This document shows, piece after piece, positions 20,329 through 51,647 of a DNA stretch of 60,829 nt (the stretch's first letter is position 1; each line of letters starts with the position of its first letter). The notes beneath the pieces are model-generated. The model searched no databases, was not told where the DNA came from, and was given only the letters and a program-made list of their open reading frames with translations. This stretch comes from Deltaproteobacteria bacterium (lineage in GTDB: Bacteria; Desulfobacterota; GWC2-55-46), in contig JACRNO010000057.1 of the NCBI GenBank assembly GCA_016234855.1, positions 1-60,829 of the forward strand. Direction: 5' to 3'. A program made the translations under genes and the position numbers.

Positions 20329-21168
20329 ATGGCCACCCAGTCAAAGAGCAGATTGACGATAGACCCAACCGCGATAATCCACCCGAGTGCCCGGCTTGCC
20401 GAAGGCGTCGAGGTAGGGGCATACAGCGTCATAGGCGAAGGCGTAGTCATAGGCGCGCACACGCGCGTCGGCCCGCACACGGTCATAGAGAAATGGACGA
20501 CCATAGGCAGGGGAAACGCCATATCCCAATTCGTCTCCATCGGGGCCGCTCCGCAGGATATCGGATACAAGGGCGAGAAGACCGAGGTGGTCATAGGCGA
20601 CAACAACGTCTTCCGCGAGTTCGTGACCGTACATCGCGCCACCACCAAGCAGAACAAGAAGACGGTCGTCGGCAACAACAACCTGTTCATGAACTACGTC
20701 CACGTCGCCCATGACTGCGTCCTGGGCGACAACATAATAATGGCGAACTCGGCCACGCTGGCCGGGCACGTCACCATAGACGCGAACGCCATCATCGGCG
20801 GGCTCGTGGCCATACACCAGCACGTGCGCATAGGCGCCTACTGCATCATAGGCGGCGCCTCGGCCGTGAGCAAGGACATCCCGCCCTACGTGCTTGCCGT
20901 GGGCAACCGCGCCAAGCTCTACGGGCTGAACAGCATAGGGCTTCGCAGGCAGGGTTTCTCAAAGGCGGCGCTCGACGAGATAAAAAGGGCGTATACCATA
21001 ATCTTCAGGTCTTCGCTCACGCTCAGCCAGGCCGCCGAGACGCTTGAGAAGGAACTGCCCTCTTCGGAGCACGCCGCAAGGTTCACAGCGTTCATAAAAG
21101 GCTCGAAGCGCGGCATAGCCCGCGAGAGGTCGAAGGCGAGGAAGAGCGATGCGGAAGACCAGGATTAA
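20329..21168 (+). CDS. lpxA: Acyl-ACP--UDP-N-acetylglucosamine O-acyltransferase
   Basis: IGAAPQD, REFVTVHRAT, HVAHDC, ATLAGHV, GLNSIGLRR. Confidence 0.96.
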   Translation: MATQSKSRLTIDPTAIIHPSARLAEGVEVGAYSVIGEGVVIGAHTRVGPHTVIEKWTTIGRGNAISQFVSIGAAPQDIGYKGEKTEVVIGDNNVFREFVTVHRATTKQNKKTVVGNNNLFMNYVHVAHDCVLGDNIIMANSATLAGHVTIDANAIIGGLVAIHQHVRIGAYCIIGGASAVSKDIPPYVLAVGNRAKLYGLNSIGLRRQGFSKAALDEIKRAYTIIFRSSLTLSQAAETLEKELPSSEHAARFTAFIKGSKRGIARERSKARKSDAEDQD

Positions 21169-22090
21169 GTGCGCGGTCATAGGCGTGGGCTACCTCGGAA
21201 GCCTTCACGCGCAAAAATACGCGATGCTCCCGGAAGCCGAGCTCATCGGCGTGGTTGACGCGGATTTTAAACGCGCCGAAGAAATCGCGGCCAGGCACAA
21301 TACCGTTGCCTTCAGGTCGTACGAAGAGCTTTTCGGCAAGGTGGACGCGGTCTCCATTGCCACGCCCACGGCCTATCACCACGAGGCCGGCATGGCCTTT
21401 CTGAAAAGGGGCGTCGACTGCCTCATAGAAAAACCCGTGGCAACGACAACGGCCGAGGCCCGCTCGCTCGTCGATGAGGCCGCCGCGAGCAAGGCCGTGC
21501 TGCAGGTCGGACACATCGAACGCTTCAACGCGGCCGTTGCCGCGCTCGCCGGGCGCCTCAATGACGTATCGTTCATCCATGCCAGGAGGCTGTCGCCCTT
21601 TCCAAACAGGAGCACGGACGTTGACGTAGTGCTCGACCTCATGATACACGATATCGACATCGTCCTCAGCATCGTAAGGTCGGAGGTGACCTCCGTCGAC
21701 GCCGCCGGCGTCCCGCTCGTATCGCGGATGACCGACTTCGCCTCGGCGCGAGTTGCCTTTGCCAACGGCTGCAAGGCCGATATCGTCGCAAGCAGGGTCT
21801 CGAACGAGCGCGAGCGCAAGCTCATCGTCTTCCAGCCCGGCCAATATTTCACCGTGGACTGCGCCACCCAGCGCCTGAGCGTATCGCGCGCGGCGCAAGG
21901 CGGCGCGCCGTCGGTAACCGAAGAGGACGTCTCCATCGAGAAGCGCGACGCGCTCCTCGAGGAGATACGCGCCTTCCTCCAATCCTCGGCCACAAGACAG
22001 CGCCCGCTGGTGACCGGCGAAGACGCCCTCGCCGCGCTCAGCGTGGCCGAGGCAATCGCCGCGTCCATCGCAAGGAACGCGGCCGGATAA
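21149..22090 (+). CDS. Gfo/Idh/MocA oxidoreductase (GnnA-like)
   Basis: GVGYLG Rossmann motif, IEKP, QVGHIERFN, DLMIHDID; between lpxA and lpxB. Confidence 0.85.
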   Translation: MRKTRIKCAVIGVGYLGSLHAQKYAMLPEAELIGVVDADFKRAEEIAARHNTVAFRSYEELFGKVDAVSIATPTAYHHEAGMAFLKRGVDCLIEKPVATTTAEARSLVDEAAASKAVLQVGHIERFNAAVAALAGRLNDVSFIHARRLSPFPNRSTDVDVVLDLMIHDIDIVLSIVRSEVTSVDAAGVPLVSRMTDFASARVAFANGCKADIVASRVSNERERKLIVFQPGQYFTVDCATQRLSVSRAAQGGAPSVTEEDVSIEKRDALLEEIRAFLQSSATRQRPLVTGEDALAALSVAEAIAASIARNAAG

Positions 22091-22111: not shown

Positions 22112-22445
22112 TCAGGGCTAATCCCCCGACCCACGCCAAGTGGCGTGGGTACCCCGCCCCCTTTTTCAAAGGGCGATGTTTTAAAAATCCCCACTTTGAA
22201 AAGGGGGGCAAGGGGGGATTTTGAGAGAGGTGCGGGGTCGTGAGCAATTGAAGGGCATTCGTAAAAGACCCACTTTAAAATCCCCCTTAGTCCCCCTTCT
22301 ACGAAGGGGGATGTTAAAAATCCCCTTTTTTTTCAAAGTGAGAGGTTTAAGCCCTGAGTCTTCTGTTAGACTTTGGTTAGAGGGTTGTCAGGGCTAAAGC
22401 CCTGAGCTACGGGTAATGACTTTGTATCTCAGACCTTCAGGTCTG
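22112..22445. repeat. Composite repeat: GTAG REP split by a 228-bp C/G-tract repeat insertion, plus further GTAG REPs
   Basis: tcagggcta|22121-22348|aagccctgag; intact tcagggctaaagccctgagctac at 22388-22410; gtatctcagaccttcaggtctg at 22424-22445. Confidence 0.75.
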
Positions 22446-22535: not shown

Positions 22536-23675
22536 ATGAACAAACGCGTCTTTATCATAGGCGGCGAAGAGTCCGGCGACGTGCACGGCGCCGCGCTCAT
22601 CAACGAGCTCAAGGCGGTCATGCCCGGAATCCAGGTCGAGGGCATGGGCGGCGGCCGCATGCGCGCCGCGGGCCTCACGGGCCTTGACTCGAAAGAGGTC
22701 TCGGTCGTCGGCATAGCCGAGGTCATCGAAAAGCTGCCAAGGCTGTGGCGCGCCTACAACTCGCTCAAGAGGCGGCTTGCCGACGGCGGCTTCGACGCGG
22801 TCGTGCTCATAGACTTCCCGGACTTCAACCTGCACATGGCGCGGGTGGCCGGAAGGCTCGGCATCCCGGTCATATATTACATAAGCCCGCAGGTCTGGGC
22901 GTGGAGGCGCGGCAGGATAAAGACGATTGCGCGCCTGGTCAGGAAGATGCTCGTCGTATTCCCGTTCGAGGCCGCGCTCTATGAAAAGGCGGGCGTGGAC
23001 GTGACCTATGTCGGCCATCCGCTCGTGGATATGGCGCGCACGGAAATAACCGGGGCCGACGCCCGGCGCTCGCTCGGCATAGACGAAGCCTCCACCGTGA
23101 TTTCACTCCTTCCCGGAAGCAGATCAGGCGAGATAAGCCGCATCCTTCCAATCATGCTCAACGCGGGCAAGGCCGTTAACAAGGCCCTTGGCAGGGACGT
23201 CGTCTATCTCCTTCCGGCTGCGGCATCCATAGAAGACGCCTTGCTCGCGCGCTTTATCGGGAATAGCCGGATAAGGCCGCGCATAGTGCGCGGCGCCATG
23301 TACGCGGCGCTGCGCGCCTCGGACGCCGCAATAGTGACCTCCGGCACCGCCACGCTCGAGACCGCCCTCATTGGCACGCCCATGGCCATCGTTTACAAGA
23401 TGTCGCCTCTGAGCGCGGTCTTCGGAAGGCTCCTTGTGCGGGGCAGGTTCGTGGGTCTGCCGAATATCGTGCTCAACAGGGCGGTCGTGCCGGAACTCCT
23501 CCAGGAAGCCGCAACCGCCGCCAATATCTCAAGAGAACTCGTCTCGCTCGTCAGCGACGTCGAAAGGCGCAAGGCCATGCTCAAGGGTTTTGACGAGGTA
23601 CGCGCCGCGCTCGGCGCTGGCGGGGCCGCGCATAGGGCCGCCGTCGCCGTAAAAGAGGTCATGACACAATCATAA
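22536..23675 (+). CDS. lpxB: Lipid-A-disaccharide synthase
   Basis: GEESGDVHG, IDFPDFN, YYISPQVWAWR, LLPGSR, SGTATLE. Start moved to ATG 22536. Confidence 0.96.
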   Translation: MNKRVFIIGGEESGDVHGAALINELKAVMPGIQVEGMGGGRMRAAGLTGLDSKEVSVVGIAEVIEKLPRLWRAYNSLKRRLADGGFDAVVLIDFPDFNLHMARVAGRLGIPVIYYISPQVWAWRRGRIKTIARLVRKMLVVFPFEAALYEKAGVDVTYVGHPLVDMARTEITGADARRSLGIDEASTVISLLPGSRSGEISRILPIMLNAGKAVNKALGRDVVYLLPAAASIEDALLARFIGNSRIRPRIVRGAMYAALRASDAAIVTSGTATLETALIGTPMAIVYKMSPLSAVFGRLLVRGRFVGLPNIVLNRAVVPELLQEAATAANISRELVSLVSDVERRKAMLKGFDEVRAALGAGGAAHRAAVAVKEVMTQS

Positions 23676-50496: not shown

Positions 50497-51457
50497 TTAA
50501 TAGATACTGATAATCATGCGCAACAGGATGTGACAGCCCGATTCCCCCTTGGTCGCACGAGCCGAGCGCATGACCGCGAAGACGACCCAGAAGCTGAAGG
50601 CTATGACAATACTGAGGCCGATGCCGGCGGCTATGCCGCCGTGCCTGCCCGTCTTCAGGGCAAACGGGATGCCCACGAGTATCATTATGAAGTTGACGAG
50701 CGGGAAGGTAATCTTGCCGTAGAGGTCGATCTTGAACCGGGCCGCGTTATAGCCCTCGCTAACGAGCCTGTTGACGTAATTCCTAAGCTCGAAAAAGCCC
50801 ATGTTCCTGTATGCGCTCTCTGCCGAGGCAAGCTCGTCCGGCGGCATGACCCCGGGCAGGACAACGTCCTTGCCTTGCGTCTTATCAGCCTTTCCATCCG
50901 GCGTAAAACTCCAGACCTCGGCCGCATCAGCCTTCCATGCGCCGTCCTTCCAAACGGCAACGCGCGCGTTCACCCTGCCTGTGACGGCAAACGGCTTGCC
51001 GACGATATAGAGCGTCACGCCGTTAAGCGCGTTCTTTTGCGTATCCATCTGCCGCACGTTCAGCAACCCGCCCTCGGTGCGCATCCAGATGCCGGATGCG
51101 CCAAAGCCCTGACCGTGCACGCCCATACGCTGACGCCGGAAGGCGTCCACCCTGGCCTGCGCCGCTGGCACGACCAGCTCGTTCATCAGGATAACGGCAA
51201 CGCTCAAGACAAGCCCGGCCGCAAGCATGGGCATGAGCGCGCGCAAGAGGCGCACGCCGCCGGATTTAAGGGCCGTGATTTCGCCGTGCCTCGACAGGCT
51301 GCCGAGCGTAAGGAGCGTTGCGAGGAGCGTTATGCTTCATCAGGCCGCCCATGTTCTCGAAGACGTCTATCATGAGAAAGAGGACGACGAACGCGGCCAT
51401 AGCCATCGCCAGAAGCTTGGCAAACTCCGTCAATATGTAGCGCTCAAGTCTTTTCAT
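50497..51457 (-). pseudogene. lptG: LPS export permease LptG, frameshifted by an internal deletion and 3'-truncated
   Basis: MKRLERYILTEF...MKHNAP, then a frame change near 51325 into LATLLTLGSLSRHGEITALKSGG...KITFPL...GIPFAL. Family resemblance is lost after FAVMRS (about 50562). Confidence 0.8.
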
Positions 51458-51506: not shown

Positions 51507-51647
51507 GTAGCCCAGGGCTTCGGACTTCCCCCTTTGAAAAAGGCGCTAAAGACACAATGTTAGCGCACAAGGGGGCGTGGTACCCACGCCAAGCGGCGTG
51601 GGTCAGGGGATTAGCCCTGATAAGTCAGACTTAAAGGTCTGAGCTAC
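51507..51647. repeat. GTAG REPIN whose left palindrome is split by a 91-bp C/G-tract insertion
   Basis: gtagcccagggctt|51521-51611|tagccctga...tcagacttaaaggtctgagctac. Confidence 0.78.

What the first reader, a model, noticed from the sequence alone, without database searches (positions are those of the whole stretch)
22112..22358. Same insertion family lands in the loop of a GTAG REP at two separate loci
Removing 22121-22348 restores TCAGGGCTAAAGCCCTGAG; removing 51521-51611 restores GTAGCCCAGGGCTTTAGCCCTGA. Both inserts are C/G-tract repeats that start, in the same orientation relative to the REP, with ATCCCC(C/T)G-ACCCACGCC..GGCGTGGGT-ACC(C/A)CGCCCCC, but differ in length and interior. Either the REP loop is a specific target, or a composite was copied and then diverged.
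Basis: seen in the sequence. Interest (0 to 1): 0.7.

Follow-up and report, generated by a model that had tools for sequence, protein, structure and literature searches.

The report
Hairpin repeat invading REP loops
A small C/G-rich hairpin repeat sits in the loop of about 30 copies of a common bacterial repeat (a REP) in this genome, always the same way round, and has entered many separate REP lineages, likely by being copied from filled into empty copies; three related genomes carry a different hairpin family in the same loop.

Summary
The insert is a C/G-tract (BoxC-like) repeat; all 28 matched GTAG-side junctions have one polarity. Filled REPs are scattered among empty sister REPINs (nearest neighbour empty in 19 of 23; one clade rejected, p-AU 3e-5), so whole-composite copying fails. 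Yet most share a junction that free copies lack (0 of 66), so fresh insertion each time is doubtful. Best reading: rare founder captures, then repeated transfer of the filled loop into empty REPs by recombination, plausibly through the REP's own tyrosine transposase. All three other genomes of the order rich in this REP carry a different BoxC-like insert in the same loop with the same polarity. The scan has noted the DUF559-hairpin link before on other DNA.

The parts
22112..22120 (-). Locus 1: distal arm of the host GTAG-type REP
22121..22348 (-). Locus 1: 228-nt insert in the REP loop, a mosaic of C/G-tract (BoxC-like) units
22126..22156 (+). Locus 1: nested 31-nt hairpin element (stem-loop 22129-22150), a separate family of 78 copies
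22183..22311 (.). Locus 1: nested inverted pair of C/G-tract units with spacer; the same pair stands outside REPs at C6, C7, C52
   Evidence: 71-82% identity over 133-266 nt
22316..22348 (-). Locus 1: decayed terminal C/G-tract hairpin and AAAC leader at the GTAG-side junction
22349..22362 (-). Locus 1: GTAG-side arm of the host REP, tail decayed
22388..22410 (-). Intact copy of the same REP next to locus 1
22424..22445 (+). Partner-type REP (CAGACC/GGTCTG stem) next to locus 1
21149..22090 (+). Upstream gene of locus 1: Gfo/Idh/MocA-type oxidoreductase after lpxA (best profile below its cut-off)
22536..23675 (+). Downstream gene of locus 1: lpxB (start codon inferred; the listed ORF begins at 22416)
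51507..51520 (+). Locus 2: GTAG tail and proximal arm of the host REP
51521..51611 (+). Locus 2: 91-nt insert, one C/G-tract unit carrying two nested elements
51542..51570 (+). Locus 2: nested 29-nt element in the C/G-tract hairpin (160 matches genome-wide)
51576..51606 (-). Locus 2: nested 31-nt hairpin element (stem-loop 51582-51603)
51612..51620 (+). Locus 2: distal arm of the host REP
51626..51647 (-). Locus 2: inverted partner REP, completing a short-spacer REPIN whose closest sister (C65:25884) is empty

Best explanation
A BoxC-like C/G-tract repeat occupies the loop of about 31 copies of a GTAG REP in one fixed polarity; it was likely captured there once or a few times and then likely copied, junctions included, from filled into empty REP copies by recombination between the shared REP arms, a homing-like spread. 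Shown: the anatomy, the polarity, the scatter of filled copies among empty sister REPINs, the private junction, the later nesting of 29-nt and 31-nt elements that makes interiors differ, and a REP-flanked RAYT gene in the genome. Inferred: the order of events and the transfer between copies. Inferred by analogy only: the enzyme. E. coli TnpA-REP binds a GTAG REP on single-stranded DNA, cuts at C^T and joins strands (PMC3333891); both junctions here abut the CT at the base of the loop on opposite strands, so this RAYT is the leading candidate, with host gene conversion as the alternative catalyst.
For: Against copying of whole units: nearest flanking context is an empty REP in 19 of 23 filled copies, observed 4 filled neighbours against 4.5 under shuffled labels; 10 filled rows among 58 long-spacer REPINs need 8 changes and one clade is rejected, p-AU 3.45e-5; insert likeness does not track host likeness, rho 0.008, p 0.43, n 23. 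Against fresh insertion from free donors: the AAACT(T) leader is in 9 of 11 fully parsed filled REPs and 0 of 66 free type-A matches; 19 of 25 distal junctions share loss of the REP's A; each genome holds both hairpin families free (10 type-I loci in G005; 9 type-II copies in G000) yet only one family was found in its REP loops. Recombination between these hairpins is visible: C60:225-271 is a perfect palindrome of two GTAG-side junctions. C43 and C37 carry inserts 117 of 122 identical in different REPIN lineages. RAYT: C88:23392-23874 passes NF047646 (99.5 bits, cut-off 80) with these REPs on both sides. Contigs of a roughly 92%-identical relative in runs X3, X4, X5 (one study) align up to 22121 and break off there.
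Against: Minor junction variants inside REPs (TGAACT, CAGACT, CGGACTT, the last at locus 2) have look-alikes among free copies, and the distal variants (AAAT, TAAT, AAAAT) mirror free element ends, which suggests several separate entries. The same element sits with nearly the same ends in the loop of another repeat family (4 type-A cases), so it may have real ends and a general taste for hairpin loops. The C43/C37 interior also stands outside a REP at C39, so interiors move on their own. In G441/G443 the distal junction comes as both C and T, mirroring the two host loop alleles. No close homologue of the G000 RAYT was found in 76 other genomes of the order at E 1e-20, and no Y1 hit in G005 or G441 is flanked by this REP on both sides; G443 gave none. 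The CT at both junctions is host sequence and is expected under any loop insertion. The tree rests on 94 columns and 10 of the 23 filled copies. The relative's letters beyond 22121 were not displayed, so an empty allele is not shown.
Confidence: 0.5

Rival explanations
1. Each filled REP is an independent, targeted insertion of a free C/G-tract element by that element's own enzyme (candidate: the DUF559 nuclease whose genes these hairpins flank), which recognises the REP hairpin tip and fixes the polarity.
For: Scatter over REPIN lineages. Same loop and polarity for a different hairpin family in G005, G441, G443. Junction variants with free look-alikes. All 10 DUF559 loci inspected by eye have C/G-tract hairpins on at least one side, 8 on both.
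Against: The commonest leader has no free donor (0 of 66); only one of two available families was found in the REP loops of each genome; shared loss of the A in 19 of 25; no fixed duplication at the junctions; no activity of DUF559 was tested and the DUF559-flanking hairpins in G000 are sister subfamilies, not the exact insert.
Confidence: 0.25
2. One founder composite was copied as a whole REPIN by the RAYT and later diverged; flanks and spacers were reshuffled afterwards.
For: Shared junctions and single polarity; the G000 junction was not found in 40 relatives, in the species-wide scan (37 hits, none composite) or in the metagenome scan (0).
Against: Filled/empty sister pairs that share spacer, partner and outer flanks, e.g. 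C43:31379 with C49:7971; one clade rejected; no insert-host correlation; filled copies keep GTAG less often than intact ones, 17 of 28 against 66 of 79, p 0.018.
Confidence: 0.12
3. The loop is a passive hot spot: hairpin tips are broken by host nucleases and repaired with whatever abundant repeat fragment is at hand, with no dedicated enzyme.
For: Many repeat families in this genome land in each other's hairpins; junctions lose 0-2 host bases and show no fixed duplication.
Against: Polarity 28 to 0 and one family per genome; random capture predicts both orientations and many donors. It may still explain the founder events.
Confidence: 0.1

Closest known systems
REP-targeting insertion sequences IS1397, ISKpn1 (IS3 family) and IS621 (IS110 family) (PMC1525189, passages read)
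   Same: Repeated entry into REPs, with the REP rebuilt when the insert is removed; extragenic safe site.
   Different: The insert here is 35-400 nt, non-coding, has no transposase and no terminal inverted repeats; only 5 of 23 copies rebuild the REP exactly; spread looks REP-to-REP.
BoxC / PIT / TMECO intrastrand-triplex repeats of E. coli (PMC4666352, passages read); boxC insertions in or near BIMEs (Bachellier 1997, PMC1207841, not held, recalled)
   Same: Pyrimidine tract, loop, purine tract, short loop, mirror purine tract; intergenic; often in inverted pairs. The G005 inserts match a relaxed TMECO pattern (3 of 3 tested).
   Different: The G000 insert fails both the printed consensus and the relaxed one; the G441/G443 inserts fail both too (0 of 7). 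Site-exact, polar occupation of the REP loop was not found in the passages read.
REPINs/BIMEs with RAYT (TnpA-REP) (PMC3116915, PMC3333891, PMC3733652; passages read)
   Same: [quoted passage not shown]
   Different: Here a foreign repeat sits inside the REP hairpin tip in roughly a quarter of the copies and changes state between sister REPINs.
Small dispersed repeats (SDR) of Nostoc (Elhai 2008, PMC2527708, not held; one passage on SDR5 inserting precisely into HIP1 read in PMC4390886; the rest recalled)
   Same: Tiny non-coding elements that insert precisely into other repeats and into themselves; best analogue for the nested 29-nt and 31-nt elements.
   Different: Not cyanobacterial; sequence relationship untested; the 31-nt element replaces 7 nt at the site tested.
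Ssn GIY-YIG nucleases with NTS/SRM repeats (PMC11893778, passages read)
   Same: Precedent for a small nuclease gene flanked by its own hairpin repeat family.
   Different: The C/G-tract family here flanks DUF559 genes, for which no activity was found in the papers searched.

Membership tests
GTAG REP / REPIN (host) | 5' GTAG followed by a short palindrome, high copy, extragenic | tested here: met
   79 exact hairpins, 66 with GTAG; both loci intergenic
GTAG REP / REPIN (host) | Inverted doublets | tested here: met
   inverted partner within 90 nt for 96 of 135 intact matches (both REP types) and 20 of 25 filled
GTAG REP / REPIN (host) | RAYT gene flanked by the same REPs | tested here: met
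   C88:23392-23874, NF047646 over cut-off; REPs on both sides
GTAG REP / REPIN (host) | RAYT cuts these REPs at C^T and transfers strands | not testable with these tools
   shown for E. coli only (PMC3333891)
BoxC / TMECO | Printed TMECO consensus | tested here: not met
   loci 1, 2 and the minimal insert fail strict and relaxed patterns; G005 inserts pass only the relaxed one
BoxC / TMECO | Y tract / R tract / mirror R tract layout | tested here: met
   6 of 6 minimal inserts parse this way
BoxC / TMECO | Triplex formation in vitro | not testable with these tools
   needs CD or NMR
REP-targeting IS or its MITE | Transposase gene or IS-like terminal inverted repeats | tested here: not met
   minimal inserts of 35-41 nt with unlike ends
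REP-targeting IS or its MITE | Fixed target-site duplication and clean rebuilding of the REP | tested here: not met
   clean in 5 of 23; junction overlap 1-2 nt and ambiguous
SDR elements (nested 29-nt and 31-nt pieces) | Under about 30 nt, dispersed, inserted in other repeats and in themselves | tested here: met
   the definition itself is recalled
SDR elements (nested 29-nt and 31-nt pieces) | Sequence or structure shared with SDR1-8 | not tested
   paper not held

The most novel reading that the evidence does not exclude
BoxC-like hairpins are hyperparasites of REP-RAYT systems: once caught in a REP loop they home from filled to empty REPs using the RAYT's own cut-and-join activity, and this has happened at least twice, with different hairpin families, in every genome of this order where the REP is abundant.
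Probability: 0.3. Interest if true: 0.72.

Novelty: new variant of a known kind. Interest (0 to 1): 0.47.

Why it matters
How REPs and other very small bacterial repeats multiply and stay alike is still argued from indirect evidence (transposition by RAYT versus gene conversion). A filled/empty loop is a natural marker on every REP copy: it separates movement of the whole REPIN from exchange between copies, and here it points to exchange. It also links two repeat-enzyme pairs (REP/RAYT and C/G-tract hairpin/DUF559) in one testable substrate. No effect on the neighbouring lpxB or lptG genes is shown.

Tried and rejected
Species-wide pattern scan for the composite: 37 single hits, none followed by a C/G hairpin; its gap of at most 12 could not see the longer-leader type of G005/G441/G443, so it only says the G000 junction was not found. 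Orthologous empty allele: named relatives are too distant (about 78% in genes) and show no such REP in the intergenic stretch where it was displayed; the protein-led metagenome scan gave only 41-51% relatives. Two read-laying runs showed a closer relative breaking off at 22121 but not its next letters. Phylum sample: 3 of 400 other genomes had one intact REP each, so no denominator. A first junction regex was too loose and a host classifier failed (part 1); both were redone. Locus 1 was offset by one base (fixed). Considered and dropped: a 3-4 bp duplication as for IS1397 (junction letters do not fit); filled state as ancestral (intact REP is the majority in all four genomes); common origin of type I and type II composites (alignment scores 1.5 and -3.5 against 21.5 within type II; unlikely, not excluded). 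PMC2884548, PMC2267715 and PMC3337134 passages added nothing on loop insertion. Paper searches returned no report of a BoxC-like repeat fixed in a REP loop; two key older papers (Elhai 2008, Bachellier 1997) are not held, and no supplements were read.

Full report
Check of the observation. Both deletions rebuild the REP as stated, and the two inserts share a 52-nt start at 90%. Locus 1 lies between a Gfo/Idh-type oxidoreductase and lpxB, locus 2 between a small membrane gene and lptG. The junction pattern occurs 25 times in the 2.3-Mb genome and never in 10 shuffles.

The host. The REP has 79 exact intact hairpins, 66 with GTAG, mostly in inverted doublets. A gene at C88:23392-23874 passes the NCBIfam RAYT model and has these REPs on both sides. 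So the host is an ordinary REP/REPIN family with its transposase.

The insert. Genome-wide I found 27 GTAG-side junction matches (26 loci) and five further loci seen from the distal junction or by hand (C12, C72, locus 1, C4, C48): about 31 filled loci, 23 with both junctions. The minimal insert is 35-41 nt: a short leader, a CCCCCTTT/AAAGGGGG hairpin, a short spacer and a second G tract. This is one of a large family: 139 matches, 124 of them outside REPs (a few are weak). Its layout is that of BoxC/TMECO, though it fails the printed consensus (PMC4666352 passages). Sister subfamilies flank DUF559 genes: all 10 loci inspected by eye on at least one side, 8 on both, the other two near contig ends. 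Polarity is fixed: 28 junctions with the hairpin end at the GTAG arm, none reversed. The outer REP stem still folds at loci 1 and 2 and in the minimal insert, but not in the one G005 composite folded.

Why interiors differ. Other small elements nest inside. The ACCCACGCC hairpin has 78 copies: 43 in another repeat family, 19 in free C/G-tract units, 11 in filled REPs, 5 elsewhere. A 29-nt element has 160 matches in many hosts, in tandem and inside itself. Locus 2 carries both; locus 1 carries the hairpin and an inverted pair of C/G-tract units also seen outside REPs.

Target or copied composite. I removed the loop or insert and compared flanks (25 nt before, 65 nt after). For 19 of 23 filled REPs the closest context is an empty REP; 4 have a filled neighbour, against 4.5 with shuffled labels. 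In a tree of 58 long-spacer REPINs (10 of the 23 filled copies qualify; 94 columns) the filled state needs 8 changes and one clade is rejected at p-AU 3.45e-5. Insert likeness does not follow host likeness (rho 0.008). Whole-composite copying thus fails. But the commonest leader, AAACT(T), is in 9 of 11 fully parsed filled REPs and 0 of 66 free type-A matches (3 of 53 type-B), 19 of 25 distal junctions share loss of a REP base, and only 5 of 23 rebuild the REP exactly. Fresh insertion from free donors does not predict this. Transfer of the filled loop between REP copies does, and C60:225-271, a perfect palindrome of two GTAG-side junctions, shows that such exchange occurs. Against it: minor junction variants, including that of locus 2, resemble ends of free copies, the element sits with similar ends in a second host family, and a near copy of the C43/C37 interior stands outside a REP. 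Several founder entries are therefore likely. Filled copies keep GTAG less often (17 of 28 against 66 of 79, p 0.018), which fits copies that no longer move as units; this is a single weak test.

Relatives. The G000 junction was not found in 40 relatives, in the species-wide scan or in the metagenome scan. Among 77 genomes of the order, four carry the REP arm in number: G000 83, G443 79, G005 75, G441 17; G018 has 3 and the rest at most 1. All four have filled loops. In G005 (at least 19 distinct composites, one duplicate locus dropped and one row without its leader parsed; further partial ones), G443 (9 loci) and G441 (3 loci) the insert is a different, more BoxC-like family, in the same loop and with the same polarity. 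The G005 and G443 inserts are related to each other and hardly to that of G000, so there are probably two independent captures, and kin are not independent samples. G005 has 10 free loci of the G000 family and G000 has 9 free copies of the other, none found in a REP loop: one family per genome, as expected if founders are rare and spread is from filled copies. Contigs of a roughly 92%-identical relative in three runs of one study align to 22121 and stop matching there with 15, 30 and 92 letters left; the letters were not shown, so this says only that the relative differs from that point.

Mechanism. Shown: structure, polarity, scatter, private junction, nesting. Inferred: capture followed by REP-to-REP transfer (0.5). 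The enzyme is inferred by analogy: E. coli TnpA-REP needs a GTAG REP on single-stranded DNA, cuts at C^T beside the inverted REP and in linkers, and joins strands in vitro (PMC3333891 passages); both junctions abut a CT at the loop base, but that is host sequence and proves nothing, the E. coli sites described lie beside the palindrome rather than at its tip, and no matching RAYT was found in the other three genomes (all are fragmented assemblies). Rivals: targeted insertion by a DUF559-type enzyme (0.25), whole-composite copying (0.12), passive repair capture (0.1).

Comparison with what is known. REP-targeting IS elements (PMC1525189), REPINs inside REPINs (PMC3116915), REP dimers inside other palindromes (PMC3733652), SDR5 inside HIP1 (PMC4390886) and nuclease-repeat pairs (PMC11893778) are all in print; I read passages of each, no whole text and no supplement. 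From recall, Bachellier 1997 reported boxC insertions in or near BIMEs; that paper and Elhai 2008 were not held and could narrow the novelty. Nine searches found no account of a polar, loop-exact, non-coding insert changing state among sister REPINs. The name BoxC came to me as a lead from an earlier finding of this scan, and I then tested it.

Verdict. Interest 0.47: mechanism untested and no phenotype, but the filled/empty marker makes an old question about REP spread testable.

Noticed in passing
window 22126-22156 and 51576-51606; genome-wide: The 31-nt hairpin element seems to replace 7 nt of target rather than simply insert: between fixed anchors in another repeat family, 14 empty copies have 7 nt and 23 filled copies have 31 nt; other target types look alike by eye. 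Also abundant in G002, G014, G023.
   Followed up: partly
window 51542-51570; genome-wide: A 29-nt element with 160 matches inserts just before a G in many unrelated hairpin families, forms tandem arrays and nests in itself; no duplication and no obvious partner gene. SDR-like behaviour outside cyanobacteria.
   Followed up: partly
G000 C17:21123, C55:2108, C80:23271, C95:24683; L209-L214: DUF559 genes are flanked by C/G-tract hairpin repeats in this genome and in four relatives; the C55 copy appears split in two.
   Followed up: partly
G000 C60:225-271: Perfect palindrome made of two GTAG-side junctions around one hairpin, a likely recombination or template-switch product.
   Followed up: partly
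G000 C11:2792-2997 and C12:975-1195: A MITE-like element that itself carries an intact REPIN sits inside the C/G-tract insert inside a REP: four levels of nesting.
   Followed up: no
window about 51330-51340: lptG appears broken near its 5' end: the frame from ATG 51457 reads like LptG for about 43 codons, the rest lies in another frame and some codons seem missing. Real deletion or assembly error is not settled.
   Followed up: partly
G000 C72:14542-14766: Small GIY-YIG gene flanked on both sides by its own hairpin repeat family, Ssn-like arrangement.
   Followed up: no
G000 C93:15373-15570 and C5:15044-15379: Two more Y1-transposase genes, each with its own flanking inverted repeats.
   Followed up: no
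G443 L216, L231, L229: In G443 the partner REP also carries loop inserts, one with a hairpin like the 31-nt element.
   Followed up: no
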